The position numbers were made by a program, and so were the translations under genes. Positions 20,316 to 63,700 of a DNA stretch of 64,000 nt are shown here, piece after piece. The notes beneath the pieces were generated by a model. It searched no databases and was not told where the DNA came from. It saw only the letters and a program-made list of their open reading frames with translations. Numbering within the stretch: the stretch's first letter is position 1; every line of letters starts with the position of its first letter. Source of the stretch: Eledone cirrhosa (lineage: Eukaryota); the NCBI GenBank assembly GCA_964016885.1, contig OZ024742.1, positions 283,960,001 through 284,024,000 of the forward strand. Reading direction: 5' to 3'.

Positions 20316-20922
20316 GTGATAACACATATTTAGACGTTAACTTTGCCTTTCATCCTTACGGGGTCGATACTGGGTAATTGCTGGCCTTGTGCCAATAGTA
20401 GAAACAATTATTATTGTAGTGGATTGGCAGTATCAGTAGAGGGTCGGACGCCAAGCATAGAGTTACGGCCCTTGCCATTCTGAGTTCAAATCCCACCGAG
20501 GTTAACTTTGCCTTTCATCCTTACGGGGTCGATAACATAAAGTACCAGTAATGCACTGGGTAATTGCTGGCCTTGTGCCAATAGTAGAAACAATTATTAT
20601 TGTAGAGGGTTGGCAGTGGATTGGCAGTATCAGTAGAGGGTCGGACGCCATGCTTTGCAGCAAAGAGTTACGGCCCTTTATGGTCTGAGTTCAAATCCCG
20701 CCGAGGTTAACTTTGCCTTTCATCCTTACGGGGTCGATAAAATAAAGTACCAGTAATGCACTGAGATAATTGCTGGCCTTGTACCAAAAGTAGATTCACC
20801 CCTAGATGTCTTTATGGGTCATTTTGAAAAGCCCTGGTTTAAATACAGATCAGGTCTATGATCAAAGTAAACCTATGATTTAAAGTAGACTTATGATTAA
20901 AGTATATATCATCATTATCGTC

Positions 20923-23714: not shown

Positions 23715-24000
23715 GTGAGGTCGCTTCTTTGAGTTTGGCTCGTTCGTTTCTTCTTCTTCTTCTTCTTCTTACGACAGCAATATATTATTATTATTATTAT
23801 TATTGGTGGATTGGCAGTATCGGTAGAGGGTCGGACACCATGCTTTGCAGCAAAGAGTTACGGCCCTTTATGGTCTGAGTTCAAATCCCGCCGAGGTTAA
23901 CTTTGCCTTTCATCCTTACGGGGTCGATAAAATAAAGTACCAGTAATACACTGGAATAATTGCTGGCTTTGTGCCAAAAGTAGACACAATTATTATTATT

Positions 24001-27000: not shown

Positions 27001-29555
27001 AAGTCCACAATTTGGTCTTTGCCTGATCAAAACGGGCGCATGTTGCTCGAACCCGAGCAGATGTGTGCGGCTTTTCAACAGCACTTTGCTCAATTGTTCG
27101 GGAGCGGCGGCGGGCCGGATCGGAGTATGGACTTCGGTGCATACCTCGACGGACTGCCGCGGCTCTCGACGACCGCAGCGCAGTGCTGCGAAAAGCCGAT
27201 AACAGCAGGTGAAATACGGGAAGCGATATCTGACTGCACGAGGGGTAAATCGCCAGGTTTGGATGGTCTGCCCTACGATCTTTATGCGTATATGCTAGAC
27301 TTGTTCGGTGACCTCTTGGCAGATGTCTACTGCAACTGGCAGCAGAACGGGAGCATTCCCAGTTTTGTGAGCCGGGGAGCGGTGGCGCTGCTGAGAAAAG
27401 ATCCGAACAAGGGGGACGTTATAGACAACTTGAGGCCCATAACTCTGCTAAACGCAGAGTTTAAGATTTTGGCCAAGGTGTTAGCAAAGAGATTGGCGCT
27501 TGTCGTCGGTGATCTGGTGGAAGAGGCGCAGACATGCGCCATCCCGGACAGATCCATCCACGACAATCTCCATCTCATGCGATACATCATAGAGAGGGTG
27601 GTTAAGGAACCTGGCACGGGTCGGGCCCTGATCAACTTGGATCAATCTAAAGCATTTGATAGGGTCGACCATCGGTACCTGGCTGCGGTCCTCGAGGCGG
27701 CCGGCTTCGGGCTCGTTTTCAGGGGCTGGATTGCTGCGATGCACAGTGACATCTGCTCGATTGTGAGGGTGAATGGTCACCTGGTGCAGCCTTTCAGCAT
27801 CATGCGCTCGGTCCGCCAGGGTTGGCCCCTCTCGTCCCTCTTGTACGTACTGGCCGTAGAGCAGTTACTGCACAAATTGGTGACGATGAGGGGTGTCCCA
27901 CGCGAACTGGGATGCGGGAGATCCGTGTCAGCTTACGCCAACCACGTCACCGTGGTGGTGTCGAGCACCAAACACGCCCAGATGCTCGGCACTGCTCTCA
28001 ATGAATACGAAGCAGTGACAGAAGCAAAGATAAACCAAGAAAAGTCGGTGGGCTTGCAACTCGGCACCTGGAGAGGCAGGTCCATGCCGTCCGACAGCGT
28101 CGTGGGGCGCTGGACGAAAGGACCGGTTAAATTGCTCGGAGTCTGGTTCGCTCCGGACCTCCAGATGGAGAAAAACTGGAGCGAGGTGACGAGCAGGGTG
28201 GCCTCTTTCACCCAGAAATGGGCCGAGAGGAGGCTGTTTCTGAAAGGTCGGGCAGAGGTGGCGAATGCGTACATAGCGTCCGTCATCTGCTACCACCTGA
28301 CCGTCGTACCTTGCCGCCGCCCAACTCTGACCAAAATGGTGCACCTTCTCTTCCGCTTCTTGTGGAAGTGACGTGTTCCCATGGTCAGACGATCCATTTG
28401 CTGTCAACACCCGTTGCGTGGAGGACTAGGCATGCCGTAGCTGATGATGCGCAAACATGCGCTGAGGCTGCGACATCTCTGGCGCTTCTTTGACGGTGAA
28501 CAGGTGTGGTCGCCGTTTGCCAGACGCACTTTTCCCCAGCTCGTCTCCTTGGCGGAGCTGCATTCCTGTATCAGGAAAAGACCGAGGGATAGCGCTTGGA
28601 AGCTGGAATGTCTCCAAGCGCTCACCGCCCTCTACCAGCTGGGCACTAGTATCGGTGGAACATCCACCTCGGCGTTCTATAGAGGGCTAGGGGAGAGAAA
28701 GAGCGACGACGTTCTCGGGGACACCCTGGGCGTCGAAAACGATTAGCTGTTCGCTCTCTTCAAGAGAACTTTCAGACCGGGGCCTATGGATAACTTCCAG
28801 AAATCCCTGGCCTGGCAGTGCTACCGGGGAGCGTTGCCGGTTCGGGATAAGCTTTACAGGCACGGAGGTGCAGTCAGCCGAGCCTGTCCGAGATGGGCGT
28901 AGGGCGACGAAACCGTCCTGCACGCACTCATTCAGTGCCCGAGGATTGCTGACTTGTGGAGCTATGTTGAACAGCTGCTGTCGCGTGTAGGACGGATCCG
29001 GTTATCGACTGAGTCCATTGTGCAGATAGCCCCGCCATCCTCCTTTAAAGAGGAGGAAGGGCAGGCAGTTTTTATCTGCCTGGTGGCCATGGCGAAAGAG
29101 ATTGTGTGGTGGACAAGGTTGAAAGGGTTGAAGACAGACACTTTCCTCTTCGGCCAATCCCTGATTAACTTATTCAAGTTTCATTTGAAGGGGAAAATCA
29201 GGGTGGAGAGGCAAGTGCTGTCTTCTAGTAAGTTTGTTGAAAGGTGGGTGAAAGTGGCGAGTCTGGTCCGAGTGAACGGGCCCGCTCTGAGTATGCGCCT
29301 TATGTCTGAGGAGTGGGAAAACTGAGAGAGGGCGCTTTCCCTGGTGGTCAGGGTCGTCGTGGTCTTTTTTGTGTGGTTTTCGCTACGAGTGACCCCTTTT
29401 TGGGGAACTTTTGTTATTTGAATATTTTTTTATTTCTAGCCCGATTTTGTTATAACCTGTTTACATGACCAAAACCCACTTTGTATCGTCCTGTACTGTT
29501 CTGTGCCGTCTCTTCGTGTTAGCCCTTGTGGCCAATAAAGAAACCATTATCATTA
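24001..29555 (+). mobile_element. Tx1/L1-group LINE copy A (degenerate, near full length)
   Basis: ORF1 with CYLCGQKGHLRAFC knuckle; ORF2 with APE (VYAP, GDWN, SYLDR, TDH), RT (KSPGLDG, RPITLLN, DQSKAFDRV; YADD mutated to YANH) and C-terminal zinc motif; several stops; AATAAA and ATT tail; begins in the (ATT)n tail of SINE 23804-24000. Confidence 0.93.
27019..28371 (+). pseudogene. Tx1 copy A reverse transcriptase domain (catalytically mutated)
   Basis: RT motifs are present but the catalytic motif reads YANH; premature stops flank the segment. Confidence 0.88.
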
Positions 29556-29709
29556 GACGGCCCTTTATGGTCTGAGTTCAAATCCCGTCGGGGTTAACTT
29601 TGCCTTTCATCCTTACGGGGTCGATAAAATAAAGTACCAGTAATGCACTGGGATAATTGCTGGTCTTGTGCCAAAAGTAGAAACAATTATCATTATTATT
29701 ATTATTATT

Positions 29710-32700
29710 GAATGCTATGGTTGACAGAGGCTCGGCTCTGTAAGGTATTGTAAATTTTGACCGCTATAACAATTGTAAATTGTTTAAAACTTTAACCAAA
29801 TTGTAGAAAAAAACACCCTCCTCCTCGTGAGAGGGGTCTTTCTGCCCGTTATTTGGCCCTTCGGGGTTAAATAACCGCTTATTGGGGTTTTGTGCCCAAT
29901 ATTTATTTTAAACCCATAAAACATGGCTACGAAAAAGAATTTTCATAAGTCACTCCCACTCATTCCGTCTTCTTCTTCCTCAATCGTCACTACACCAGAG
30001 AGAAGATTGTCTCTCTCCCTCCCTTCTCTTTCGCAAGCGACGCCAGTAAAGAAAAATCACGTAGAAAGCGTGCAACATTTCTCCACGACGACGACGACGA
30101 CAACGACGAAAAAGGTGTGCGGTAAATACGAAAACCCATTTCATTCGTCTGACGTCATGAATAATAGCAGTAGCAGCCGTAATAACAGCAGCAGCAGCAG
30201 CAGCAACAGTGACAAGGAAAACAACAGTAGCAGCCGCAACAACATCAGCAGCAGCATAAACAACAACAGCATTAGCAGCAACAGCAACAACAACAACAAC
30301 CACAGCAACAGCGGCGGCGGCAGTAGTCGTAGTACCTGCAGCAACAACAAAAGTAACAGCAGCTCTGACGACAACAACAACAACAACAGCAGCAAAGAAA
30401 AACCAATCTCGTTTGCAAGTATCGCAAAGAACCTGGAAACCATCCTCATAACAAATGAGGAATTAGAGGAAGCGAAGAAGATGGTGACGAAAACCGGACA
30501 CCGAGCAATCTGCAAGGCAGCCGAAAAATTTTTCGAAACCCAACAGCACTGTACGGTCACGTACCGTACAGTAAGCACAAAATCCTGTAGGGTTGAAAGA
30601 GCCACAGAGGCTCAAATACAAAAAGCCTTAGAGTCTGTGTGGCAGCGGAAAACGCACATCACCCGAGGCAAGAAATATGCCACCGTAGACGTGCTTTTTG
30701 CCACACCCCAGGAGGCAAAGGGTCAATCCTTAGTGACCCTAAGGAGCGAGGAAATGGTGTTGGTGCCCTCCTACTGCGGGCCAAAAATTGTGAGGGTCAA
30801 ACTGACCCCCCCCCCCCCCCCCGGGATGGCCCCTTCTTGGCTGGCCGCGTCTGTCCTCGTCGGAATCGAGGACAAAACAACTGTACTGCAAGTACAGAAA
30901 AGAGTAAGAGAAGATTGGGTCGGCACCTCCATTGAGATGTTAATCGCTGTGGATCGAAGACTCACCTCAGGGCCTTCTGCAACGAGAAGACCCTGAGAAA
31001 GGAGAAAACCCCCCTCCTTCCGAAACCGGCTCCACTGCTACCAGCAACAAGACAAGCGGCAACCAGGAACGATAGGTCCGTGGCACCCATACCCACGCCA
31101 CGGAAATCAAGAACAGCAGCAGCAGTGGAAGTATTAACAACAACAACAGTAATACCAAATGCAGCTGCAACAGAGACTCCACTGCAAACATCACCAACAA
31201 CAACAAGTGAAAGAGTGGAGCTGGTACCCCTCCCCGACCTCACAGAATCAGACATGGAGTGTGAGGTGGGAGAGGGATGGCAAAAGGTCGTAAGAAGGCA
31301 CAAACGCAGAAGCAGCGCATCGTCGCCTTCGAAAAGGGAGGAAAGAAATGAAAAAAGGGTAAAGGTTACTGCAAAGAGACTCACAGCAGCAACACCACCA
31401 ACACCATCACCACTCACACTAGCACCACCATCACCACCGGCGACAACCCCACCGCCAACAACAACAACACCTTCAACACCACCACTACAAGCACCAACAT
31501 CGCAAACACAATAAAACACACACAGCCAGCAACAATGACAAGAAAATAGCAGAACCACACCCCACCCCAGAAAAACAAATGCACGGCAATAAATACACAC
31601 AACAAGAAACTAATGACTTACATAATTGAACACACAGACATTTCACAGCACGACTACATAATACCAGCACCAATCAAAACGCCAACGAACATAATACCGG
31701 AGAGTATATTCGGACATACTCATAGAAGAGCCAACGACCAGCCGAAGGGACGATTCAACGGTCCCTTCACCAGACGATCAAGTGAAAAGGGATGGAAAAA
31801 CCATCCTTCCTCTACGAAAAGTACGGTAAGTGGTCTTTCCCATCTTTTCCACTCTATTTTTAAACATGACCTCAATCAGAATAGGCAGCATAAATGCGCG
31901 TGGCTTGGGGTCGTCATGGAAGCAGGGTCTAGCATAGGCTGTCCACAATTCAACATAGTCAGCTACACAGACCACAAATTCGTGATCTGTGTGCTTGACT
32001 TAGATAGGCTTCATAGACGAGGACCCGGCTACTGGAAGCTAAACGCGTCCTTACCAGCGCGCAAGTCCTACAGAGACCGGATTAGCGAACTAGTTAAGCG
32101 GGCGTTGACGGGGGCTATCGTCAACAAGTGGTGGTTTGCTCTGAAAAGAGCGATTAGAATAGAATCCATTAGGTTTAGTAAGGCTTTAGCAATAGAGAAA
32201 AATAGAGCAGAGGGAGAACTAGTTAGAAAATTAGATGAGGCGCTTAGCAAAGGCATCGCGACCGACGTGCTTGCGGCGAAATTGGCCCTTGACCAATTCT
32301 CCAATGCAAAGCACAAAGGCTGCGTTGTCAGAGCTAGGGTGTGTGCTCTCAGACACGAGGGGACGAAAGCCGTTCAATGGGCCCAAGTGGCGGAGGCACG
32401 TCGTGGCAACAAAGCTACGATCCGGTCTTTGGTGGACCACGACGGGCGCATGCTACTCGATCCCGGGCGAATGTGTGAAGCTTTTCAGCGACATTTCGCT
32501 CAGCTGTTCGGGGGCAGCGGTGGGCCGGGTCGAGGGATGGACTTTAGTGTCTACCTCGACGGACTGCCGCGGCTCTCGGCCACTGAGGCGGAGTGTTGCG
32601 AAAAGCCGACAACAGCCGCTGAAGTACGGGAGGCAATGACTGGCTGCACAAGGGGTAAATCGCCTGGTTTGGATGGTCTGCCCTATGAACTTTACGTACA

Positions 32701-34902
32701 GATGCCAGACTTGTTCGGAGGCCTCTTGGCGGACGTCTACTGCAACTGGCAACAGACGGGAGAATTACCAGCTCTGTGAGCCGAGGAGCGGTGGCATTGC
32801 TGAGAAAGGATCCGAACAAGGGGGATAACATAGATAATTTCAGGCCCATAACTCTGCTAAACACAGTGTTCAAGATTTTGGCCAAGGTGCTAGCAAAGAG
32901 GTTGGCGCTTGTCGTTGGTGGTCTGGTGGGAGAGGCGCAGACATGCGCCATTCCCGACAGATCCATCCACGGGTGGGTCCTTGATCAATTTAGATCAGTC
33001 GAAAGCTTTCGATAGGGTCGACCATCGTTACCTAGCGGCAGTCCTGAGGGCGGCTGGCTTTGGGCCCGTCTTCAGAGGCTTGATCGCTGCCATGCACAGC
33101 GACATCTGCTCTGTGGTGAGAGTGAACGGTCACCTTTCGGAACCGTTCAACATCATGCGCTCGGTCCGCCAAGGATGTCCCCTCTCGTCCCTCTTGTACG
33201 TATTGACTCTCGAGCCATTACTGCACAAACTAGAGACGTTGAGGGGCGTCCCGCGCGAACTAGGATGCCGGAGATCCGTGTCAGCATATGCGGACGATGT
33301 CACCGCAGTGGTGTCGAACGCCAAACACATCGAGGCGATCGGCACTACACTAAGAGAATACGAAGCGGTGACAGGAGCAATGATCAACCAGAAAAGGTCA
33401 GGGGCCTGCAGCTCGGCACCTGGTGAGGCAGGTCCATGCCGTCCAACAGCGTCGTCGGACGCTGGACGGACGGACCGGTTTAATTGCTAGGGGTCTGGTT
33501 CGGTCCGGACCTCCAGACGGACAAAAACTGGGACGAGGCGACGAGCAGGGTGGCTTCTCTCACCCAGAAATGGGCGGGGAGGAAGCTATCCCTGAAAGGT
33601 CGAGCGGAGGTGGCTAACGCGTACATCGCGTCTGTCATCTGCTACCGCCTGACCGTCGTACCTTGTTCTAAGCTCCGCCTGACTGCGCTGGAGCGTTTGC
33701 TCTTTCGCTTTTTGTGGAAGGGACGCGCTCCGATGGTCAGGCGGTCCATCTGCTGTCAACACCCGCTACGTGGAGGGCTGGGAATGCCGTGGCTGATGAT
33801 GCGCAGACACGCGCTCAGGCTACGACATCTCCACCTCTTCCTCGACGGTGATCAGGTGTGGTCGCCGTTTGCTAGACACGTATTTCCCCAGCTCGTTTCC
33901 TTGACGGAGCTGCAGTCCTGGGTCAAGCGAAGACCGAGAGGGAGCGCCTGGAGACTGGAATCTCTTCAGGCGCTCACAACCCTCGACCAATCGGGCAATG
34001 TGATCGGTGGAAACTCCACCTCGGCGTTCTATAGAGGATTAGTGGAGGGGAAGAGCGACGACGTACTTGGGGAAACTCTAGGCGTCGACGAAAATCAACT
34101 AGCCAATCTCTCCGGAAGAACTTTCGGCCCGGGACCTATGGACAACTTCCAGAAATCTCTGGCCTGGCAGTGCTACCGAGGAGCCTTGCCAGTTCGGGAT
34201 AAACTCTACAGTCATGGAGGTGCCGTCAGCCGGGCATGTCCGAGATGCGCGCAGGGCGACGAAACCGTCCTGCACGCACTCGTCCAGTGTCCGAAAATTG
34301 CTGACTTGTGGGTTTATGTCGAACACCTTCTGTCGCGTGTAGGACGGATCCGGCTATCATCTGAGTCCATCGTGAGGATTGCTCCGCCCTCTTCCTTTAG
34401 CCGGGAAGGGCAGGCAGTTTTTATCTGTCTGGTGGCCATGGCGAAAGAGATAGTATGGTGGACACGTTTGAAAGGGCTGAAGACGAGCACTTACCTCTTC
34501 GGTGATGCCCTGATTAACTTTTTCAAATTTCATTTGAAAAGGAAAATCAGGGTAGAGAGGGAAGTGCTCTCTTCCCACCATTTTGTTGAAAGATGGGTAA
34601 GAGAAGCAAGAATGGCCCGAGTGAATGGGCCTACTCTGAGTACGTATATGTAAATTAAAGGTGGAAAACTGGGAGAGGGCACTTGCCTTGGTGGTCAGGG
34701 TCACTGTGGCCTTTTACTGGGCTTTCTCCACAAATGTCCCTCCGAAGTCTCCCCCCTATTGGGGAATTTTTCATTGTAATTTTTTTGTTACATCCTCTGT
34801 TTTTGTTTTTTACACGCAGAAATGCCCATTTGTACCGTCCTGTATTGTCCTGCACTGTCCTTAATGTCTACTTTATGTAAACCCTTGTGGTTAATAAAGA
34901 AA

Positions 34903-34936
<34 letters not shown>
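29710..34936 (+). mobile_element. Tx1/L1-group LINE copy B (intact termini, most of the endonuclease deleted)
   Basis: ORF1 MATKKNF... from 29923; RT with YADD at ~33287; CPRC..ETVLHALVQC; ~570 bp of EN missing relative to copy C; (ATT)n at both ends. Confidence 0.95.
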
Positions 34937-34937
<1 letters not shown>

Positions 34938-35298
34938 AGGGTGGTGGATTGGCAGTATCGGTAGAGGGTCGGACCCCATACTTTGCAGCAAAGAGTTACG
35001 GCCCTTAATGATCTGAGTTCAAATCCCGCCCAGGTTAACTTTGCCTTTCATCCAACGAGGTCGATAAAATAAAGCACCAATAATAAACTGGGGATCAATT
35101 TAATCAACTTTTCCCCCTCCCAAGATTGCTGGCCTTGTGCCTAAATCTGAAACAATAATTGGTAGTATCGGTTGAGCGTCAGCAGACACCTTGCTGTGCA
35201 ACATAGAGTTACGGCCGTTTACACTCTGAGTTCAAATCCCTTATGCCTAAAGTAGAAACAATTATTATTAAATGTATTATGTTTGTTGTGTTTTTTAG

Positions 35299-41330: not shown

Positions 41331-41414
<84 letters not shown>

Positions 41415-41499: not shown

Positions 41500-41548
<49 letters not shown>

Positions 41549-46877: not shown

Positions 46878-47018
<141 letters not shown>

Positions 47019-47270: not shown

Positions 47271-47318
<48 letters not shown>

Positions 47319-47481: not shown

Positions 47482-47530
<49 letters not shown>

Positions 47531-47619
47531 TCACACACGAGCTGTTCCGTTGGCCAGTCCTTGACTTCGTAATGATTCAAATGACTGACAATAAATAAAA
47601 TCACAGTAAATATACAAGC

Positions 47620-48125: not shown

Positions 48126-49367
48126 GTAAGTCTACTATACCTATCTACTACGTGGACGCTACGAACCAGTGAGGGAGCCTCTACATGTCCTATCTATCTG
48201 CTGGAAATAGCAGTCAAATATTCCTTAACCCTTTCAATACTGTAGAGACATATACATCCCAAAGTATAGTTTGCATTCTACTGAATAGTCTTTCTTTCTT
48301 ATAAAAATGGTATTTTCTCAAAGCTAGGTGTAGTTGACTTATTTGTTGCCTAGCATATGATTCGGTTGAAATAACCAATCCCCCTCGCGAGGATCACCCA
48401 ATACATTGGTAAGGTAAGTCGCCAACAATAACATAAATCTTGTTGTCAATGGCTCAGCTCCCATAAACGCCTCGAACGTCACAGGTTGAAAAAGGTAGTA
48501 TGGCACCAATCTATTTTGTGTTCAGTTGTTTGGCAGTATCGGTAGAGGGTCGGGCGCCATGCTTTGCAGCATAGAGTTACCTCCCTTTATGATCTGAGTT
48601 CAAATCTCGCCGAGGTTAACTTTGCCTTTCATCCTTACGGGGTCGATAAAGTACCAGTAATGCACTGGGATAATTGCTGGCCTGGTGCCAAAAGTAGAAA
48701 CAATTTTATATATTATATATATAATATATAATTTTTTATACAAGGGGCAGTGGATTGGCAGTATCGGTAGAGGGTTGGATGCTATGCTTTGCAGCATAGA
48801 GTTGCGTCCTTTTACGGCCTGAGTTCAAATACTGTCGAGGTTAACTTTGCCCTTCAACCTTACGGGGTCGATAAAATAAAGTACCAGTAATGCACTGGGA
48901 TAATTGCTGGCTTTGTGCCAAAAGTAGAAACAATTATATATATTTTTCATTGCGTTATTGAACACCGTAGGATATACATATGTTACATTAAGAAATTAAT
49001 CATGTGTTGTATAACATGTATGAATAGACTCCTGCGTGTCTTGAGCATTTAAAACCTGGCGGAGCCCATCTCCCTGTTTTGATCTGAAAGCAGCTTATTT
49101 TGTCCAGATGAGAGAGAGGGAGAGAGAGTTATAGAGGAAGAGTTGACCACAGTACTTGACTGGTAATTTTTTATCGACCTTGAAAGGATGAAAAGCAAAG
49201 TTGACCTCAGTGGAATTTGAACTCAGAGAGCGCAGAGAAGAAAGCGTAATGATGGTATTGGTAATGTTGAGGATAATAATTAAATGATCTGATGATAATA
49301 ATTATGATAACGGTGATGATTATGATGACGAAGATGATGATTTACCAAGGATGTTTGATTCTTTTAG

Positions 49368-50140: not shown

Positions 50141-51126
50141 GTTAATCATTTAAAAAATGTCTAACTGTTAAACAGTTTCGCCAATCTATTGTATCTGCAT
50201 TGGCAAAGTTAACCTCGGAGGTATTTGAACTCAAGCTGAAACAAATAGCAAGGACTTTCATGCGACACTGTCACAAAAGTTGTGCCCCACTAAGGTCGCA
50301 GTCAAATGATTGAAACCAGTAAAATAATTGTTTCTACTTTTGGTACAAGGCCAGCAATTACCCCAGTGCATTACTGGTGCTTTATTTTATCGACCCCGTA
50401 GGGATGACAGGCAAAGTTAGCCACGGCGGGATTTTAACTCAGAACGTAAAGGGCCATAACTCTATGCTGTAAAGCATTGTGTCTGCCGCTCTACCGATAC
50501 TGCTAATCCATAACCAGTAAAATGATTTCTAATTTAGGCGCAAGGTTAACAATTTGTGGGAAGGGGAAAGTCAATTATACCGACCCCTTTGCTTGAGTGC
50601 TTCTTTATTTTATTGACCTCAGCAGGATTAAAGGTAAAGTTGATTTCGGTGGAATATGAACTCAGAACATAATGACCCTGGAACAAGTACTGCTAAGCAT
50701 TTGTTTGACGCTCTACCGACTCTGTTAATCCACTGCCCTGAAACCAGTAACATAAAAGAACTATACTTTTGATTTTTGTGAAAAGTTCTGTTGTAATTTT
50801 TTGATAAGTGTGTGTGGGGGGGGGGGGGGGGGGGGGGGTCGAAGCTTTCATATATATATATACATACATATATAACAAAGTGTTGTCGTTTCCTTGAAGC
50901 ATTGTGGAATAAGAAATACAAATTTAAGTAAGTTTAAATATTTGGAAGTCCGACAATGCGTGCGAAATTAATAAAATTCCTAAGGTAAAATTTTACCTTT
51001 CTCACTCTTATCTTAGTCCTTTTATTCTCTATAACTCCTATCACTTTGCCACTTTTATATATTAACGCTTCACAAAGTCTAAATTCAACACCATGTATAA
51101 CTGTAGACCATGTTGTGTAACTTCAG

Positions 51127-52617: not shown

Positions 52618-52641
52618 GGGTGGGGGTTATAAAAATTTGGC

Positions 52642-52832
52642 AATTTACTTTGATGTCCCGACTGCAGTTTCGCTGTGTAATTTCAGTTTTGAACGTCCCA
52701 ATAATTTAGGATATTCTCCAATGTGAAATTTCACAGCTCCTCAGGAACTTCTCAATCAAGGAAAAAATTATTTCGAGTGATCCGTAACCAGCGACAATAG
52801 CGAAACTGCTGTCAAGACATCAAAGTAAATTG
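52642..52832. repeat. Short inverted repeat or MITE remnant
   Basis: AATTTACTTTGATGTC..GCAGTTTCGCT versus AGCGAAACTGC..GACATCAAAGTAAATT. Confidence 0.55.
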
Positions 52833-53466
52833 GTATTTTTTTTATTTTATCTTGTTTACTTTTCCTACATATAATTTTATTATAGTCTGACTAATTGATT
52901 TTTTTTTATTAATTCCTTCATTGAGCAAAACTGGTAATAGCTGGACACCTTCATATGTATGTCTCACTGTAGTAGAAAAGTGAATGATAATGATGATGAT
53001 GTGTATTGGTTGTAGATAATTGCGATAAGTAACCAATGTGTACATCTGTTGGAAAGCGAATGTGTTTTATCCGTGGGAAAAGTGATTTCCCCGATCACTA
53101 GGTTTATGGAAGAAGAATGAAAATACCCGCTACTTTTATATGAGATTTATTGTGTAGTATTTCAAGACGGATATACATGAATTAACATGTTGTTATAGCC
53201 AAAAGATATGAACAACAAGCAACGAGGAAATAATTTGTATTGCACGAGGAACGTGTGTGATATATGTTTGAGTAGGATAATAATAATAATAATAATAATT
53301 GTTTCTACTTTAGGCACAAGGCCAGCAATTACCCAGTGCATTACTGGTAATTTATTTTATCGACCCCGTAAGGATGAGAGATTTGAACTCAGATCGTAAA
53401 GGGACGTAACTATGCTGGAAAGCATGGCGTCCGACCCTCCACCGATACTGCCAATCCACCGCCCTT

Positions 53467-53467
<1 letters not shown>

Positions 53468-53507
<40 letters not shown>

Positions 53508-56500
53508 TTTCTTTATTAACCACACGGGTTTACATAAAGTAGACATTAAGGACAGTGCAGGACAATACAGGACGGTACAAATGGGCATTTCTGCGTGTAA
53601 AAAACAAAAACAGAGGATGTAACAAAAAAATAACAATGAAAAATTCCCCAATAGGGGGGAGACTTCGGAGGGACATTTGTGGAGAAAGCCCAGTAAAAGG
53701 CCACAGTGACCCTGACCACCAAGGCAAGTGCCCTCTCCCAGTTTTCCACCTTTAATTTACATATACGTACTCAGAGTAGGCCCATTCACTCGGGCCATTC
53801 TTGCTTCTCTCACCCATCTTTCAACAAAAAGCTGGGAAGAGAGCACTTCCCTCTCTACTCTGATTTTCATTTTCAAATGAAATTTGAAAAAGTCAATCAG
53901 GGCATCACCGAAGAGGTAAGTGCTCGTCTTCAGCCCTTTCAAACGTGTCCACCATACTATCTCTTTCGCCATGGCCACCAGACAGATAAAAACTGCCTGC
54001 CCTTCCCGGCTAAAGGAAGAGGGCGGGGCAATCCTCACGATGGACTCAGATGATAGCCGGATCCGTCCTACACGCGACAGCAGGTGTTCGACATAAACCC
54101 ACAAGTCAGCAATTTTCGGACACTGGACGAGTGCGTGCAGGACGGTTTCGTCGCCCTGCGCGCATCTCGGACATGCCCGGCTGACGGCACCTCCATGCCT
54201 GTAGAGTTTATCCCGAACTGGCAAGGCTCCTCGGTAGTACTGCCAGGCCAGAGATTTCTGGAAGTTGTCCATAGGTCCCGGGCCGAAAGTTCTTCCGGAG
54301 AGATTGGCTAGTTGATTTTCGTCGACGCCTAGAGTTTCCCCAAGTACGTCGTCGCTCTTCCCCTCCACTAATCCTCTATAGAACGCCGAGGTGGAGTTTC
54401 CACCGATCACATTGCCCGATTGGTCGAGGGCTGTGAGCGCCTGAAGACATTCCAGTCTCCAGGCGCTCCCTCTCGGTCTTCGCTTGACCCAGGACTGCAG
54501 CTCCGTCAAGGAAACGAGCTGGGGAAATACGCGTCTAGCAAACGGCGACCACACCTGATCACCGTCGAGGAAGAGGTGGAGATGTCGTAGCCTGAGCGCG
54601 TGCCTGCGCATCATCAGCCACGGCATGCCCAGACCTCCACGTAGCGGGTGTTGACAACAGATGGACCGCCTGACCATCGGAGCACGTCCCTTCCACAAAA
54701 AGCGAAAGAGCAAACGCTCCAGCGCAGTCAGGCGAGGCTTAGGACAAGGTACGACGGTTAGGCGGTAGCAGATGACAGACGCGATGTACGCGTTAGCCAC
54801 CTCCGCTCGACCTTTCAGGGATAGCTTCCTCCCCGCCCATTTCTGGGTGAGAGAAGCCACCCTGCTCGTCACCTCGTCCCAGTTTTTGTCCGTCTGGAGG
54901 TTCGGACCGAACCAGACCCCTAGCAATTTAACCGGTCCGTCCGTCCAGCGTCCGACGACGCTGTTGGACGGCATGGACCTGCCTCACCAGGTGCCGAGCT
55001 GCAGGCCACCGCTCCTCAGCTCACAGAGCTGGGAATTCTCCCGTTCTGTTACCAGTTGCAGTAGACGTCCGCCAAGAGGCCTCCGAATAAGTCTGGCATC
55101 TGTACGTAAAGTTCATAGGGCAGACCATCCAAACCAGGCGATTTACCCCTTGTGCAGCCAGTCATTGCCTCCCGTACTTCAGCGGCTGTTGTCGGATTTT
55201 CGCAACACTCCGCCTCAGTGGCCGAGAGCCGCGGCAGTCCGTCGAGGTAGACACTAAAGTCCATCCCTCGACCCGGCCCACCGCTGCCCCCGAACAGCTG
55301 AGCGAAGTGTCGCTGAAAAGCTTCACACATTCGCCCGGGATCGAGTAGCATGCGCCCGTCGTGGTCCACCAAAGACCTGATCGTGGCTTAGTTGCCACGA
55401 CGCGCCTCCGCCACTCGGGCCCATTGAACGGCTTTCGTCCCCTCGTGTCTGAGAGCACGCACCCTAGCTCTGACAACGCAGCCTTTGTGCTTTGCATTGA
55501 AGAATTGGTCAAGGGCCAATTTCGCCGCAAGCACGTCGGTCGCGATGCCTTTGCTAAGCGCCTCGTCTAATTTTCTAACTAGTTCTCCCTCTGCTCTATT
55601 TTTCTCTATTGCTAAAGCCTTTCTAATCCTAATGGACTCTATTCTAATCGCTCTTTTCAGAGCAAACCACCACTTGTTGTTGACGATAGCCCCCGTCAAC
55701 GCCCGCTTAACTAGTTCGCTAATCCGGTCTCTGTAGGCCTTGCGCGCTGGTAAGGACGCGTTTAGCTTCCAGTAGCCGGGTCCTCGTCTATGAAGCCTAT
55801 CTAAGTCAAGCACATAGATCACGAATTTGTGGTCCGTGTAGCTGACTATCTTGAATTGTGGACAGCCTATGCGAGACCTATCTATTTCCCTACAAAATAC
55901 TCTATCTAGATATGATCTGGATGACCCTATGCGATTTGTCCAAGTCCACATTGGCACATTCGGGAAATCCAATCGGTACCTGTCAGACAGTTCAAAACGC
56001 CTGAGCAGGTTGGTGAGGCTCTTGCACCCTCCTCCCCTATCCGCTAATCCCACACAGTCCCAGTGTGCATCTAAGATCCCGTTCCAGTCGCCCACTAACA
56101 CTAAAGAGCGGGACGTTCCAAGAAAGGTCTCCAGACGCCGGAAGAAATCAGGCCGCCCTGCTCCTGTCGGGGCATAGACGGCCACTAGCCTGAAAGCTTG
56201 CTCGTCTCCGCTGGTCACGTCCAGCACCACCAACTTACCCTCTGGATCCAGGAAGATGGCCCGTATGGCAAAATCCAAACCACTCCGAAAAAGCACAGCA
56301 ACTCCTTCCCCCGATCCAGGACGGCTGGGAGATGCGTACACATCGTAGCCGCCGAAGATCGGTGCGAAGGGCCGTGCTTCGGAGATTCTGGTCTCGCTGA
56401 TGGCCACTACATCTATGTTTAGTGACCTGAGGTCGTTGAGCAGGTGGCCCTGCTTCCATGACGACCCCAAGCCACGTGTATTTATGCTGCCTATTCTGAG

Positions 56501-58903
56501 TGAGGTCATGTTGAAATGGAGTGGAAAAGATGGGAAAGACCACTTACCGTACTTTTCGTAGAGGAAGGATGGTTTCTCCACCCCTTTTCACTTGATCGTC
56601 TGGTGAAGGGACCGTTCAATCGTCCCTTCAGCTGGTCGTCGGCTCTTCTATGAGTATGTCCGAATATACTCTCCGGTTGAGAGTCCCTCCTAGGTCTCTG
56701 AAATCACCAACTGCGTTGGGGAATTTCGTTTTAATGTTTGTGTATTGTTTTTGTGCTATTTTTACCAGTCTTATGTTCGTTGGTGTTTTGATTGGTGCTG
56801 GTATTATGTAGTCGTGCTGTGAAATGTCTGTGTGTTCAATTATGTAAGTCATTAGTTTCTTGTTGTGTGTATTTATTGCCGTGCATTTGTTTTTCTGGGA
56901 GTGGGGTGTTGTTCTGCTATTTTCTTGTCGTTGTTGTTGGGTGTGTGTGTTTTGTTGTTGTGTTTGCGATGTTGGTGCTTGTGGTGGTGGTGTTGAAGGT
57001 GTTGTTGTTGTTGGCGGTGGGGTTGTCGCCGGTGGTGATGGTGATGTTAGTGTGGGTGGTGATGGTGTTGGTGGTGTTGCTGCTGTGAGTCTCTTTGCAG
57101 TAGCCTTTACCCTTTTTTCATTTCTTTCCTCCCTTTTCGAAGGCGACGATGCGCTGCTTCTGCGTTTGTGCCTTCTTGCGACCTTTTGCCATCCCTCTCC
57201 CACCTCACACTCCATGTCTGATTCTGTGAGGTCGGGGAGGGGTACCAGCTCCACTCTTTCACTTGTTGTTGTTGGTGATGTTTGCAGTGGAGTCTCTGTT
57301 GGAGCTGCAGTTGGTATTACTGTTGTTGTTGTTAATACTTCCACTGCTGCTGCTGTTCTTGATTTCCGTGGCGTGGGTATGTGTGTCACGGACCTATCAT
57401 TCCTGGTTGCCGCTTGTACTGTTGCTGGTAGCAGTGGAGCCGGTTTCGGAAGGAGGGGGGTTTTCTCCTTTCTCAGGGTATTCTCGTTGCAGAAGACCCT
57501 GAGGTGAGTCTTCGATCCACAGCGAAAGCATTTCGGGCGTTTACCCTCAACACATATGGGCAGTTGAGTGCCGTTATCGAAGTCTATCACATCCGGGATA
57601 GCTTCGATGCACTCCTGGTTGGTTTGGATTAACATCTCAATGGAGGTGCCGACCCAATCTTCTCTTACTCTTTTCTGTACTTGCAGTACAGTTGTTTTGT
57701 CCTCGATTCCGACGAGGACAGACGCGGCCAGCCAAGAAGGGGCCATCCCGGGGGGACGTGGGTCAGTTTGACCCTCACAATTTTTGGCCTGCAGTAGGAG
57801 GGCACCAACACCATTTCCTCGCTCCTTAGGGTCACTAAGGATTGAGCCTTTGCCTCCTGGGGTGTGGCAAAAAGCACGTCTACGGTGGCATATTTCTTGC
57901 CTCGGGTGATATGCGTTTTCCGCTGCCACACAGACCCTAAGGCTTTTTGTATTTGAGCCTCTGTGGCTCTTTCAACCCTACGGGATTTTGTGCTTACTGT
58001 ACGGTACGTGACCGTACAGTACTGTTGGGTTTCGAAAAATTTTTCGGCTGCCTTGCAGATTGCTCGGTGTCCGGTTTTCGTCACCATCTTCTTCGCTTCC
58101 TCTAATTCCTCATTTGTTATGAGGATGGTTTCCAGGTTCTTTGCGATACCTGCAAACGAGATTGGTTTTTCTTTGCTGCTGTTGTTGTTGTTGTCGTCAG
58201 AGCTGCTGTTACTTTTGTTGTTGCTGCAGGTACTACGACTACTGCCGCCGCCGCTGTTGCTGTGGTTGTTGTTGTTGTTGCTGCTGCTGCTGTTATTGTT
58301 GCTGTTGCTGCTAATGCTGTTGTTGTTTATGCTGCTGCTGATGCTGTTGCGGCTGCTACTGTTGTTTTCCTTGTCACTGTTGCTGCTGCTGCTGTTATTA
58401 CGGCTGCTACTGCTATTATTCATGACGTCAGATGAATGAAATGGGTTTTCATATTTACCACACACCTTTTTCGTCGTTGTCGTCGTCGTGGAGAAATGTT
58501 CCATGCTTTGCACGTGATTTTGGAAGCTATTTTTCTTTACTGGCGTCGCTTGCGAAAGAGAAGGGAGGGAGAGAAACACATTTAGAGAAGGGAGGGAGAG
58601 AGACAATCTTCTCTCTGCTGTAGTGACGATTGAGGAAGAAGAAGACGGAATGAGTGGGAGTGACTTATGAAAATTCTTTTTCGTAGCCATGTTTTATGGG
58701 TTTAAAATAAATATTGGGCACAAAACCCCAATAAGCGTTTATTTAACCCCGAAGGGCCAAATAACGGGCAGAAAGACCCCTCTCACGAGGAGGAGGGTGT
58801 TTTTGTCTACAATTTGGTTAAAGTTTTAAACAATTTACAATTGTTATAGCGGTCAAAATTTACAATACCTTACAGAGCCGAGCCTCTGTCAACCATGGCA
58901 TTC
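53468..58903 (-). mobile_element. Tx1/L1-group LINE copy C (intact termini and EN, RT core deleted)
   Basis: Very close to copy B; ORF1 58690-56628 with one frameshift and CFRCGSKTHLRVFC; EN GSINTRGL, AISETR, VYAP, GDWN, SYLDR, TDH; ~660 bp of RT missing at ~55005; (ATT)n at both ends. Confidence 0.95.
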
Positions 58904-58939
<36 letters not shown>

Positions 58940-59122
58940 TGTTTCTACTTTTGGCACAACGCCAGCAATTACCCAGTATATTACTGGTACTTCATTTTAT
59001 CGACCCCGTAAGGATGAAAGGCAAAGTTGACCTCGGCGGGATTTGAACTCAGAATGGAAAGGGCCGTAATTCTATGCGTCAAAGCATGACGTCCGACCCT
59101 CTACCGATACTGCTAATCCACC

Positions 59123-59181
<59 letters not shown>

Positions 59182-59182
<1 letters not shown>

Positions 59183-60238
59183 GTTCCACAAGAGGAGTGA
59201 TGTCGATAGACTCTACTTAAGGAGATCTGAAGGTGGAAGAGGACTGTGTTCAGATGGAGAAAAACAACCTACACAAATACGTGACTAATAGTAGGGAGCC
59301 AATGCTCAGAATTGTATTGAAGGAGAGGACAATAGACCAGGAGATGTCCAAGGAGGAAATAACAACAAGGAGGAAGAGCAGCCTTCATGAAAAATCCCTT
59401 CATAGTACCGTCTTTGAGAAAACTGAATTTAGAGATACACAGACATGGAACTGGTCGAAAAGAGGAGACCTTAAAAAGGCTACAGAATGAATGTTAATGG
59501 CTGCGCAAGAGCAGGCCCTCAAAACGAAGTGGCTGAAACACCATATTTACAAAGAGGAGGCTAGCCCACTGTGTAGGATATGTGGAGAGAGAGAGGAGAC
59601 TGTGGCTCACATTGTATCCGAGTGTAAACACCTACCCCAGACTCACTATAAAGGCTGGAGACATGATATGATGGGCAGGGTGATCCACTGGCACCTATGC
59701 AAAGTAAACAATTTACCACATTATGAGAAGTGGTATGAGCATAAGCCAGAGTCGGTGGTAGAAAACGATCAGGTGAAGGTGCTGTGGGATTTTAGGATAC
59801 AGACGGACAAGAAACTGGAACACAATAGACCTGACCTGGTAGTTTTTGGACAAGGAAAAAAGATCGTGCCTGATTGTAGATGTCGCCTGCCCATTCGACA
59901 CGAGAGTGCAAGAGAAGGAGAAGGAGAAAATTAACCGATACCAGGACTTAAAGTGGGAGGTAAAAAAGATTTGGAACTGCCATGAAGTCAAAGTGGTCCC
60001 GATTGTCATAGGCGCACTAGGTACTATCTCAAAGAGTTTCCAAGGATGGTTAAAGAAAATTAGTCCCGCCCCGCTTTTTGGAACACTTCAAAAGGCATGC
60101 TTGCTGGGAACAGCAAGAACCCTCCGATACGTCCTGAATATCTGAGGCTGCAGGTAGTGGCTTGATATTCATTTCAACAAACTTTCCAGTTAAATAACAT
60201 CAATGACTGAGTCTCAAAGAACAATAACAATAATAATG
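59182..60238 (+). mobile_element. 5'-truncated Dong/R4-like RLE LINE in (AAT)n
   Basis: LMAAQEQAL, CRICGEREETVAHIVSEC, RHD, HNRPDLVV, IVDVACP, KEKINRY, VPIVIGALG; preceded by a long (AAT)n tract and followed by AAT/AAC repeats. Dong elements are known to target (TAA)n. Confidence 0.9.
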
Positions 60239-60239
60239 A

Positions 60240-63200
60240 AATTATTGTGTACAGTGTTCAGGTGCACTACAACTCATCAAAGGTGCATGTATAGTACATA
60301 GAATAATGTACAAATGTCAGGAAAATGAAAATTTAACGAATCATGAAATACATGTGTGCGTGTGTATAGAGGGGAGACACCAGGTGTCGTGTTGGCGAAT
60401 CTCAGGAAGCATGGAGGTTTTAAAGGATGCAGTGTCTCGACAGCTAACAACTGATGCAGGTAGTTTGTTCTATGCTTTAGCAACTCTGAACGTGAAAAAA
60501 TGTTTCTGAACGTCATGGGAGCTGTGCTGTTTTCTGACTTTGTGGGCATGCCCACGTGTGTTAGACACATGGAAATCAAAAAGGTGCTCAGGGTTGTTGT
60601 TGGCAAGATGGTTAATAATTTTGTGGGTGTTTACCAAGTCAGTTGCCAGACGTCGGAGCCCTCAATGTATCCATGCCCAGGGAAGAAAGGCGTTCAGAGT
60701 ATGGTAGATTCCTGATGGAGGGTATTCGCTTGGGCGCACGTCTCTGAACAGTTTCCAGGAGGTCAATATTCTGAGCAAGATAGGGGTTCCAGACTGGTGA
60801 TACAAATTCTAACTGTGACCGCACCATAGCTATATACAGCTTTAAATAGATAGCTGGAGAGCGGCTGACAAAGGTCTTGCTGAGTGATGCTAAGACACCC
60901 TCGGCCTTCTTGACAATTTTAGAGACGTGCTTTGTCCAACGCAAATCGATGCTGACAGTAATGCCCAGGTCACTTTCACAAAAAGACTTCTTGATATTAG
61001 TGTTGTGGATGGAGTATGTAGACGCTGGGTTTTTACTCCCAAAATGTATGGTGATACACTTGTCCACAGCCAACTTGAGTTGTCAGTCCATGATCCATTG
61101 TTGCATTGTGTCCAGGTCTGATTGCAGGAAAGATCTATAGTGTTCAGGATCTGTCCTTTTTATCTCAAGGTACAGCTTGATGTCATCTACATATTTCAAT
61201 ACTGTGGCATTCTTTAAGTTTGCATCTATGTCATTAATATATGCCACAAACAAAAGGGACCAAGAATAGATTCCTGTCGTACACCAGATGACATCTCATA
61301 CGATGAGGAATGCTGCCCTAAAACCGTGACTACCTCTCTTCAACCAGTTAAAAAGATCATCTTTCACACCCATTGCAGAGAGTTTTGCCATAAGTCTTTT
61401 GTGTGGCACAGAATTGAAAGCTTTAGTAAAGTCAAGGTAAACAACATCCACCCATGAGCCGCCATCAGTGATCCGGGTGATGTCTTCAAGAAACTTGATA
61501 AGTTGATCACAGCAGCTGGAGTTAGGGATAAATCCAAATTGCGAGGGCCGGATAAGACTGTGAGAGTTTCAGAAGTTCAAAAGTGTTTCTCTGACACAGG
61601 ATTCCATCAGTTTGGCAATGCAGCTAGTAAGACTGACTGGACGATAGTTGACAGGTGATGTGTGGTCACCCTTTTTGAACAGAGTGTAGCGACTAGCGTC
61701 ACCTTGCTCGGAGAGAAAAAACTAATTGGAGTTACTTCCCGTTGAATTCTAGAAGATTCCTTTTCTCCCTCCTTTATCGTACCGTTTTTGATGCACTTCA
61801 TTCCTTGTCGCATCCCGGCATAGCTGCCACGGTGAAGCTTATTACGGCTCGATTTTTCTGGCCTAATATGCGTCATTTAGTCACCGGTTGGGCACGTTCT
61901 TGTTTGAAATGTCAGTGCTCTAAGATTTATCGGCATGTCCGCGCTCCTCTTGTGAAATTCAGCCCGCCAGACGCACGTTTCCGTCATATTCACATGGATA
62001 TTGTTGGTCCTTGGCCCGTTAGTCGTGGGTTCACATACATATTGACTTGTATCGATCGTTTCTCTCGGTGGCCTGAAGCCATACCCTTAGTGGACATAAC
62101 AGCAGAGTCCGTTACCCGAGCTTTCATTTCCAATTGGATTTCTCGCTTTGGTGTTCCTACTAAAATAACCACGGATCGTGGACGCCAATTTGAAGCTTCC
62201 TTATTTCGTGAAATATCACGACTCTTGGGTGCTCATCACATTCATACGACCAGCTATCATCCAGCCTCCAATGGAATAGTCGAGAGGTTTCATAGACAGT
62301 TGAAAGCTGCACTTCGCGCTACGTTGGACCGAATTTTTGCCAATCGTGCATCTTGGTTGTCGTTCTGCCATTAAGACAGATTTAGGTTTTTCTTCTGCTG
62401 AACTTCTTTATTGTACCACGTTGTCTCTTCCTGGACAAATGTTAGCACCAGTGGATTCATCACATCTTGACCTAGCATCATATGTCACCAGGATTCGTTC
62501 GTATTTCTCGGATCTTCCACCAATGAACCCTCGTGACCAATCTATTTCTTCTGCTGTCCCATGGGACATCTCTACGTGGACACACATTTTCATACGGAAT
62601 GATTCCGTCAAGGGACCTTTTCGTGTGCTTTCGCACACACCAAAACACTTTACAGTGGCTGTCAATGGTCGAAAAGAGGTAATATCCGTTGACAGAGCAA
62701 AGAAGGCTTTCTCTGAAAGTTTCACATCATTTCCTGACATACCTCGCACATACACTCCTACACCAACACCTTCACCTCCACCGCAAACACCACATACCAC
62801 ACAACCATGTCACACGAAGTGGCAGGACAGTAATATAGCCACGGAAACTCTCAAAAACAATATTCGTCTAACCCCTAGTAGCATTAACTATTTGACTTTG
62901 AACAATTTTGAACTTATTTTGAACACTATTTTCCTTGCTCCCTTGTACTGTTTTGAATTGTATTGTTCCAGTTACATTTTTCTGCATGTTTATTTTCATA
63001 CTTTGCTTCTGTTACAAACCATTGTAATTTATGTACCTTTTGTTTTGCTTGCTCCTTATTCTACGGCTCCTGGCTACAATGACCTTACGGTTATTATCAA
63101 CTATCGTCTGGAGGGGAGCCTTGTAGCGACTAACGCCACCTTGCCCGGGGAGAAAAAACTAATTGGAGTTACTTCCCGTTGAATTCTAGAAGATTCCTTG

Positions 63201-63700
63201 AACTTCCAGTCTAGGGATTATAAAGGAGGGAGAAAAGAGACATCTTAGCTTATTTGGTGACCGGCTCTCGGACAGTTCACTCACGAGCGAGTTTGTTAAC
63301 ATTATTATATCTGTATCGAATTTAATTAGTGGTTGGCCTGCAGTGGCGTTTACCAAAGTAAATAACCCTGTGACCAATTCACTAAAAGAAGAATGACACT
63401 GGCAGTTTTTCACTGCTCTGGAGTAGCACCGTTGTTCAGACAGAATTGAAAGAAGAGTGATAGCTGGTGCAGAAGAAGATACTCACCACGTTTGAGAAGC
63501 AGGTACGTAACACCATCAAGACCAGGAGAGGTATGGTTGCGTTTATTTTTAAGGTGACGTCGCAGTATTGTAGGTGTAAATTCCATAGTTGTAATAGAAT
63601 CCGATGTTAGAGGTGGTGGAGATGGTACACTTTGGTCTTCAAAAGTCAAAAACATAGACTTAGTATGTTTTTAAAAGTTGGTAGAAGTGATTCTGTAGAG
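60240..63700 (-). mobile_element. CR1-group LINE RT (pseudogenised), interrupted by a Gypsy element
   Basis: SPGLDG..ATPEQ*KTASVI | PLFKKGD..NYRPVSLTSC, YLDFTKAF, YVDD, SDLGITV, LEFVSPVWNP, LETVQRRA; the frame resumes across 61684/63387. Confidence 0.88.
61685..63386 (+). mobile_element. Internally deleted Ty3/Gypsy LTR retrotransposon (integrase only)
   Basis: LTR start TGTAGCGACT at 61685 and 63122; polypurine tract GGAGGGGAG before the 3' LTR; integrase HHCC (HSLSH..CLKC) and D-D-E (HMDIVG, TTDRG, VERFH); 4-bp TSD AGAG/AGAA. Confidence 0.92.

What the first reader, a model, noticed from the sequence alone, without database searches (positions are those of the whole stretch)
53278..60250. 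Self-seeding (ATT/AAT)n landing pad used by four element types
Seen in order: (AAT)n-SINE-(AAT)n-Tx1 C-(AAT)n-SINE-(AAT)n-Dong-like-AAT-CR1 3' end. The same pattern gives (ATT)n-SINE-Tx1 A-SINE-Tx1 B-SINE-SINE at 23.8-35.3 kb and head-to-tail SINE trains at 20.3-20.8 kb and 48.5-48.9 kb. SINEs and Tx1 within a train are co-oriented, and B and C start at the same base after (ATT)n. Known: several Tx1 families (Kibi, Koshi) and Dong are microsatellite-specific. Inference: each insertion adds a new (ATT)n tail that is the next target, so arrays grow and inflate introns.
Basis: partly seen in the sequence, partly recalled or inferred. Interest (0 to 1): 0.7.

Follow-up and report, generated by a model that had tools for sequence, protein, structure and literature searches.

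The report
Retrotransposon train on one ATT repeat
Five jumping-gene copies of four kinds sit end to end on one ATT/AAT repeat in an octopus-like genome; across the genome three of the kinds land at this repeat (two on one strand, one on the other) and duplicate it, while the fourth likely only supplied the first repeat, a new variant of a known repeat-seeking habit.

Summary
Confirmed: full-length Tx1-like LINEs start at (ATT)n in 54 of 57 other copies; truncated Dong copies follow (AAT)n in 25 of 38 and (ATT)n in none; Tx1/SINE/CR1 neighbours of Tx1 ends are co-oriented in 42 of 44 and Dong is opposite in 19 of 19. Corrected: (1) CR1 does not target the pad (0 of 20 truncated copies); it only brings an (ATT)1-7 tail. 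(2) SINEs and truncated Tx1 copies usually add no new tail: they duplicate a short ATT-starting site (SINE median 15 bp); only 13 of 75 SINEs have (ATT)3 upstream. So the pad is renewed mainly by target-site duplication. The SINE ends in the same small hairpin as the Tx1-like families and likely borrows their enzyme. No host gene was found, so 'inflates introns' is untested. Dong on TAA and microsatellite-seeking Tx1 families are known; an ATT target and this SINE partner were not in the papers I searched. The scan noted the same phenomenon many times elsewhere in this genome. New variant of a known kind; interest 0.42.

The parts
53277..53297 (.). (AAT)7 run; distal copy of the target, continuing into unique flank
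53298..53467 (-). tRNA-type SINE (A/B-box-like motifs by eye), small internal deletion, ends in hairpin tail
53468..53505 (.). (AAT)12 spacer between Tx1-like 3' end and SINE head
53506..58903 (-). Tx1-like (L1-group) LINE copy C: full 5' end, broken ORF1/ORF2, APE domain with motifs kept (55391-56587 frame), about 660 bp of the RT region missing, zf-RVT, 3' hairpin
58904..58939 (.). (AAT)12: SINE tail junction into which copy C's 5' end abuts
58940..59124 (-). full-length SINE
59124..59181 (.). (AAT)19 between SINE head and Dong 5' truncation
59182..60220 (+). 5'-truncated Dong/R4-like LINE; CCHC, RHD and PD-(D/E)xK-type motifs across a frameshift; opposite orientation to all other members
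60221..60237 (.). Dong tail (ACAAT/AAT) joined tail-to-tail with the CR1 ATT tail
60238..61685 (-). CR1-like LINE 3' part (RT motifs, stops); likely founder of the ATT seed; interrupted further on by an LTR-element fragment
23783..35269 (+). second train: SINE 23805-23988, Tx1-like A 24001-29545, truncated SINE 29557-29685 flanked by a 10-bp duplication, Tx1-like B 29710-34904, second-type SINE 34943-35153, deleted SINE 35158-35260
20333..20794 (+). three head-to-tail SINEs separated by a repeated 13-bp site
48522..48932 (+). two head-to-tail SINEs, AT-rich spacer without (ATT)n
50329..50733 (-). two head-to-tail SINEs with the same 12-bp non-repeat site present three times

Best explanation
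This is a stack of independent retrotransposon insertions at one ATT/AAT repeat, in which Tx1-like LINEs and a SINE sit on the ATT strand, Dong sits on the AAT strand, and each insertion likely renews the landing site by duplicating it. Inferred mechanism: the Tx1-like APE endonuclease would nick the AAT strand so that a 3' end ...AATAAT primes on the RNA's AUU end; the SINE, whose 3' hairpin matches the LINE's, likely borrows this machinery and takes any ATTAT site; Dong's restriction-like endonuclease would nick the other strand. Each event leaves two copies of a 7-21-bp ATT-starting site, one directly behind the new element's tail, so later insertions stack in fixed polarity; slippage likely lengthens pure runs. 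CR1 does not aim at the repeat but leaves (ATT)1-7 tails at unrelated sites, and such a tail likely founded this train.
For: Shown: 28 of 28 B/C-family and 26 of 29 A-family full-length 5' ends in other loci follow (ATT)>=3, none follow (AAT)>=3. 15 of 21 5'-truncated Tx1-like copies have an ATT/ATC-starting duplication or ATT run at the 5' junction (read by eye; one internally deleted copy dropped), so the repeat is target, not element sequence. Dong: 25 of 38 truncated 5' junctions at (AAT)>=3, 0 at (ATT)>=3 (5 of 43 rows dropped because the element continued). Orientation across 115 Tx1 junctions: 42 co-oriented and 2 opposite SINE/Tx1/CR1, 19 opposite and 0 co-oriented Dong, 52 unlabelled. 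SINEs: 49 of 75 with a duplication, median 15 bp, 41 starting ATT; 16 of 75 behind an element tail against 129 of 4017 ATTAT sites (p 2e-9; 2e-5 with the baseline doubled); 5 adjacent pairs 74-91% alike versus 87% mean for random pairs. B and C are 95.9% alike, no closer than C is to copies elsewhere (96.0-96.2%), with different deletions and flanks. Shared loop CTTGT with different, still pairing stems in SINE (145 of 337 motif hits in two variants), B/C (55) and A-type (6) tails. CR1: 0 of 20 truncated copies with (ATT)3 at the 5' junction, duplication >=8 bp in 3 of 20. Best genomic matches: CR1 92-94%, Dong 97-98%, Tx1 C ends 98-99%, consistent with CR1 being oldest.
Against: Genomic copies were the top 30 of 40 scored among 576-3462 candidates per search, so they are biased to young copies. 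No empty-site allele was seen, so order within the train is inferred, and pure repeats hide duplication lengths. 6 of 21 truncated Tx1-like copies and 13 of 38 Dong junctions lack the repeat. Some truncated Tx1 copies have a long 3' ATT run with no ATT at the 5' side (L037, L049, L050), which leaves room for real tail addition. Whether the endonuclease or RNA-DNA pairing picks the site was not tested. SINE mobilisation by the Tx1-like enzyme rests on tail and target likeness only. One three-copy Tx1 array with identical interrupted spacers (L179/L180) could be tandem duplication.
Confidence: 0.75

Rival explanations
1. One reading: every element type targets (ATT)n and each adds a fresh (ATT)n tail that becomes the next target.
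For: Long ATT runs follow most Tx1 3' ends (22 of 29 in each family have >=3 units); CR1 and Dong carry templated short tails; three truncated Tx1 copies have long 3' runs without a 5' run.
Against: CR1 0 of 20 at the 5' junction. SINE 3' side has (ATT)3 in only 13 of 75, and 8 of those also have it on the 5' side. Truncated Tx1 copies in unique sites (L032, L044, L053, L274, L283) show the duplication with no extra unit, L057 with 5 extra bases.
Confidence: 0.12
2. Site choice comes from RNA-DNA pairing, not the nuclease: a loosely specific enzyme or existing breaks expose 3' ends, and only ends complementary to the AUU (Tx1, SINE) or AAU (Dong) RNA end prime reverse transcription. This also gives fixed opposite polarity.
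For: Each element's target equals its own last bases; CR1 shows that a tail alone need not match the site, but CR1 is a different enzyme.
Against: Published view that the endonuclease is the main determinant in Tx1-type elements (PMC4494074, passage); no G at the base before ATT in 41 SINE sites points to recognition outside the paired stretch. Not exclusive of the best explanation.
Confidence: 0.25
3. Trains arise by local duplication or unequal crossing-over between target-site duplications, or by passive survival in neutral DNA.
For: Unequal recombination between duplications is a published route to SINE tandem arrays (PMC11481361, passage); identical spacers in L179/L180; the first SINE pair at 20.4-20.8 kb is 93.5% alike.
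Against: Members belong to different families, adjacent SINEs are as divergent as random pairs, B and C differ in deletions and flanks; base-exact junctions and strand polarity are not expected from passive accumulation.
Confidence: 0.06

Closest known systems
Kibi (TC)n, Koshi (TTC)n and crocodilian Tx1 families on (TTCC)n/(TTTC)n (PMC4494074 passages and section 15; PMC3812793 passages)
   Same: APE-type L1-group LINEs inserting into a microsatellite.
   Different: Target here is (ATT)n/ATTAT; host is a probable octopod; ORF2 is 1139 aa and clade membership was not tested against named Tx1 sequences.
Dong (R4 clade): Bombyx Dong, DongAg, snail DongBg on TAA repeats (PMC3812793 passage); Dong-R4 families listed as recently active in Octopus vulgaris (PMC13282606, table 1)
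   Same: Restriction-like-endonuclease LINE in (AAT)n; tandem Dong trains seen in L136 and L262.
   Different: Nothing new for Dong itself; here it shares the repeat with an APE-type LINE on the opposite strand.
SINEU / Tx1-Mar of crocodilians (PMC4494074 passages)
   Same: SINE and Tx1 share a target; tandem SINE insertions sandwich a duplication and are read as sequential insertions.
   Different: SINEU has snRNA heads and a Mariner target; this SINE has a tRNA-type head, an ATTAT target and a 3' hairpin shared with the LINE.
L1/Alu poly(A) tails and duplications as sources of microsatellites and of new cleavage sites (PMC3812793 passages)
   Same: Retrotransposon ends create repeats, and duplicated target sites can be cut again.
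   Different: Trinucleotide target, several unrelated clades, stacks of 7-11 kb.

Membership tests
L1 group / Tx1 clade | Two ORFs; ORF1 with zinc knuckle; ORF2 with APE, RT and C-terminal zinc finger | tested here: met
   Pfam Exo_endo_phos, RVT_1, zf-RVT, weak zf-CCHC; near-intact 1139-aa ORF2 in L180; best solved match human L1 ORF2p, E 3e-52, over R2 1e-21
L1 group / Tx1 clade | RT phylogeny groups with named Tx1 elements | not testable with these tools
L1 group / Tx1 clade | Target preference (over 20% of flanks, criterion in PMC4494074) | tested here: met
   54 of 57 full-length 5' flanks; 15 of 21 truncated
Dong (R4 clade) | Single ORF with RT followed by CCHC and PD-(D/E)xK restriction-like endonuclease | tested here: met
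   Motifs read in window and L262 translations; motif names recalled
Dong (R4 clade) | Insertion into TAA repeats | tested here: met
   25 of 38 truncated 5' junctions at (AAT)>=3, 0 at (ATT)>=3
Dong (R4 clade) | RT phylogeny separating R4 from NeSL/HERO/R2 | not tested
   No tree built; no named references in hand
CR1 clade | CR1-type RT motifs, short tandem-repeat tail, no target specificity or regular duplication | tested here: met
   Translation (typing of motifs recalled); tail (ATT)1-7, 0 of 20 ATT 5' junctions, 3 of 20 duplications >=8 bp; clade not tested by tree
tRNA-derived SINE | tRNA-related head with A and B boxes | tested here: inconclusive
   A/B-box-like motifs by eye; no tRNA match in Rfam at E<=1
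Tx1-mobilised SINE | 3' tail shared with the partner LINE and the same insertion signature | tested here: met
   Common CTTGT loop with different pairing stems followed by GAAA(C/T)(C/A); ATT-starting duplications in both; Dong and CR1 tails differ
Tx1-mobilised SINE | Trans-mobilisation shown in cells | not testable with these tools
   Needs a retrotransposition assay

The most novel reading that the evidence does not exclude
Long (ATT)n arrays are required for full-length integration of these LINEs (and perhaps for their transcription from the flank): 54 of 57 full-length copies follow (ATT)>=3, median 7-12 units, but only about 6 of 21 truncated copies do. Arrays seeded by CR1 tails and doubled by SINE, Tx1-like and Dong insertions would then be the only nurseries of active copies, a self-amplifying multi-clade niche that made most long ATT repeats of this genome and drives a SINE of roughly 280,000 full-length copies.
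Probability: 0.25. Interest if true: 0.68.

Novelty: new variant of a known kind. Interest (0 to 1): 0.42.

Why it matters
It names a likely partner LINE lineage and insertion signature for a very abundant cephalopod-type SINE (75 full-length copies in 800 kb), explains where two thirds of long ATT repeats sit (22 of 33 abut these elements), and offers a clean natural pair for an old question: an APE and a restriction-like endonuclease use opposite strands of one repeat, so nuclease versus RNA-pairing control of target choice can be tested by domain and tail swaps. The two large trains fill about 18 of the window's 64 kb, so the process contributes to genome size. Each ingredient has a precedent, which caps the surprise.

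Tried and rejected
Empty-site alleles: three contig runs of one sample laid on 52640-60700 gave no joint across the train; uninformative. Host gene: 27 long and 143 of 173 shorter frames outside the trains gave no host Pfam domain; short exons would be missed. Whether full-length copies carry their 5' (ATT)n with them: both ends of 38 fetched regions were examined (a 3' end was found for 15 B/C starts and 6 of 20 A starts); one copy (L163) shows an interrupted 16-bp duplication with at most one extra unit, the rest are pure repeats; inconclusive. The search with B's 3' end returned almost the same loci as and added two. B and C as an inverted local duplication: rejected. A duplication around the window's CR1 that would fix the order: none found; neighbouring 20 kb held no further CR1 match. 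First tail classifier merged SINE and Tx1 tails and was replaced. AAC and ACC control arrays were confounded by low-complexity ORF1. Rfam gave only chance hits. No named Tx1 references were obtained, so no tree was built. Literature searches found no paper on an ATT-targeting Tx1 family or a Tx1-partnered octopus SINE; Repbase, Dfam, Kojima and Fujiwara 2004, Ohshima and Okada 1994 and all supplements were not seen and may hold this.
Full report
Setting. The window is G000:C3:283960001-284024000 of a 3.0-Gb animal genome. The nearest named protein relative of the LINE ORF2 is from Argonauta hians at 74%, so an octopod host is inferred, not shown.

Observation. Reading the minus strand, the region runs: CR1-like 3' end, short ATT tail, a reversed 5'-truncated Dong-like element, (ATT)19, SINE, (ATT)12, Tx1-like copy C, (ATT)12, SINE, (ATT)7, unique flank. 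Copy C has APE and zf-RVT matches, keeps the endonuclease motifs and lacks about 660 bp of the RT region relative to a near-intact copy in L180. The Dong-like piece has CCHC, RHD and PD-(D/E)xK-type motifs across a frameshift, and the CR1-like piece has RT motifs with stops (motif names recalled). The 23.8-35.3 kb train is as described. The small SINE trains are joined by short repeated sites, in one case a 12-bp non-repeat site present three times at 50.3-50.7 kb.

Tx1-like target. I searched the genome with the 5' ends of C and A and the 3' ends of C, A and B; each search scored 40 of 555-1769 candidates and returned 30 loci, so the sample favours young copies. Leaving out the window's own copies, 28 of 28 B/C and 26 of 29 A 5' ends follow (ATT)>=3 within 8 bases and none follow (AAT)>=3; random positions have (ATT)3 within 14 bases in 113 of 50,000 draws. 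The sequence beyond the repeat differs from locus to locus. Among 22 copies truncated within 1.5 kb of the 3' end, one was an internal deletion and was dropped; 15 of the other 21 have an ATT/ATC-starting duplication or ATT run at the 5' junction, read by eye. So the repeat is the target. In five copies that landed in unique sequence the 3' side holds only the duplicated site (6-21 bp) and no extra ATT unit; one has five extra bases; three have a long 3' run with no 5' ATT.

SINE target. In 80 evenly spaced 10-kb stretches there are 75 full-length SINEs; 49 have a detectable duplication (7-21 bp, median 15), 41 of these start with ATT and 36 with ATTAT; only 13 of 75 have (ATT)3 upstream and 13 downstream, 8 on both sides. 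The apparent tail is therefore mostly the second copy of the target. Sixteen of 75 sit behind an earlier SINE, Tx1 or CR1 tail, against 129 of 4017 ATTAT sites (p 2e-9, or 2e-5 if both duplication copies count as available). Five adjacent pairs are 74-91% alike, random pairs 87% on average, which fits sequential insertion.

Dong and CR1. Of 43 Dong 5' junctions listed, 5 were dropped because the element ran on beyond my reference; 25 of the other 38 (the window's copy included) follow (AAT)>=3 and none (ATT)>=3. Of 29 other CR1 copies, 20 are truncated within reach: none has (ATT)3 at the 5' junction, 3 have a duplication of 8 bp or more, and the 3' tail carries 1-7 ATT units. CR1 is thus a donor of seeds, not a user; 4 of 29 CR1 tails are followed by a co-oriented SINE or Tx1-like copy.

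Polarity. Across 115 Tx1 junctions, labelled neighbours were SINE/Tx1/CR1 co-oriented 42, opposite 2, Dong opposite 19, co-oriented 0; 52 were unlabelled. Across 29 Dong 3' ends: 14 opposite SINE/Tx1/CR1, 1 co-oriented Tx1, 2 co-oriented Dong, 12 unlabelled. In the evenly spaced sample 22 of 33 (ATT)>=6 arrays abut one of the four types; Dong junctions are on the AAT strand in 12 of 12 and the others on the ATT strand in 17 of 18; (AC)n, (AG)n, (ACAT)n and (AAG)n controls give 4 of 184, (ATC)n 5 of 25.

SINE-LINE link. SINE and Tx1-like tails share a five-base loop closed by different stems that all pair (SINE TGGC/GCCA or GGC/GCC, B/C AACC/GGTT, A-type GCC/GGC, another GGCC/GGCT), followed by an A-rich stretch and GAAA(C/T)(C/A) before ATT; Dong and CR1 tails are unlike this. 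With the shared strand, ATT start and duplication length, Tx1-like mobilisation of the SINE is the likely reading; it is inferred, not shown.

Independence and order. B and C are 95.9% alike, C is as close to copies elsewhere (96.0-96.2%), and their deletions and flanking SINEs differ. In the first train a 10-bp site with an ATC interruption flanks the truncated SINE on both sides but is absent before A and after B, which suggests A, then SINE, then B (inference). In the second train the spacers are pure repeats; best-match identities (CR1 92-94%, Dong 97-98%, C ends 98-99%) fit CR1 first. No empty allele was found.

Mechanism. Shown: flank composition, polarity, duplications, tail likeness, CR1's lack of targeting. 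Inferred: nicking of the AAT strand by the APE domain and of the ATT strand by Dong's nuclease, priming on matching RNA ends, SINE trans-mobilisation, slippage growth, founding by the CR1 tail. Open: nuclease versus RNA pairing; why full-length copies sit in longer arrays than truncated ones (54 of 57 versus about 6 of 21 with three or more units).

Known versus new. Kibi, Koshi and crocodilian Tx1 families target other microsatellites, and SINEU shares a target with Tx1-Mar and forms tandem insertions around a duplication (PMC4494074: passages, and section 15). Dong targets TAA in silkworm, mosquito and a snail, and duplicated target sites are known to be re-cut (PMC3812793: passages). Dong-R4, L1-Tx1, CR1 and SINEs are listed as recently active in Octopus vulgaris with no mention of targets (PMC13282606: part 1 of 3 and passages). 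Passages of PMC4640811, PMC5786205, PMC3747384, PMC4758252, PMC3531059, PMC9115989 and PMC11481361 gave background and no ATT-targeting Tx1 or Tx1-partnered cephalopod SINE. Eight searches found none; Repbase, Dfam, subscription papers and supplements were not seen. The scan's own notes report the same ATT-seeking LINE, hairpin-sharing SINE and opposite-strand Dong at many other places in this genome; they are not independent support, and every count above is from my own calls. What this window adds is the CR1 test and the distinction between duplication and tail addition.

Verdict. Real, genome-wide, a new variant of a known kind. Interest 0.42.

Noticed in passing
window 61686-63390: LTR-element fragment (integrase domains, LTR-like piece repeated at 61685-61762 and 63122-63199) inserted into the CR1 copy, which resumes near 63390.
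   Followed up: partly
window 14267-15511: 414-aa open frame with a weak zf-RVT match, overlapping (ACAT)n runs; probably a further LINE remnant.
   Followed up: no
window 13239-13790: 552-bp self-inverted repeat (about 90%), MITE-like.
   Followed up: no
window 40410-41678, 43412-44389, 46851-47576: Open frames of 422, 325 and 241 aa with no convincing Pfam match.
   Followed up: partly
window 3551-3906: Diverged (68-69%) fragment of a related Tx1-like endonuclease region.
   Followed up: no
L179/L180 (G000:C1:57.09-57.10 Mb): Three head-to-tail B/C-family copies with the same interrupted spacer before each; sequential insertion or tandem duplication.
   Followed up: partly
L136 3349-7955; L262 1403-6381: Trains of three or four co-oriented, 5'-truncated Dong copies separated by (AAT)n; L136 came from the evenly spaced sample.
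   Followed up: partly
L058, L060, L125, L128, L136, L173, L241: A second, distant Dong-like family (about 56% to the window's copy) abuts the same arrays on the AAT strand.
   Followed up: no
L125, L229, L230, L163, L292, L300: Further recurring heads beginning GG directly after (ATT)n, probably other ATT-seeking families.
   Followed up: no
L007, L022, L028, L035, L241, L327: (TTC)n runs directly upstream of (ATT)n or of a truncated Tx1-like copy; (AGT)n or (GTT)n often continue the 3' side.
   Followed up: no
L049, L251: Dong/Tx1-like chimeric junctions without a repeat, suggesting deletions inside stacks.
   Followed up: no
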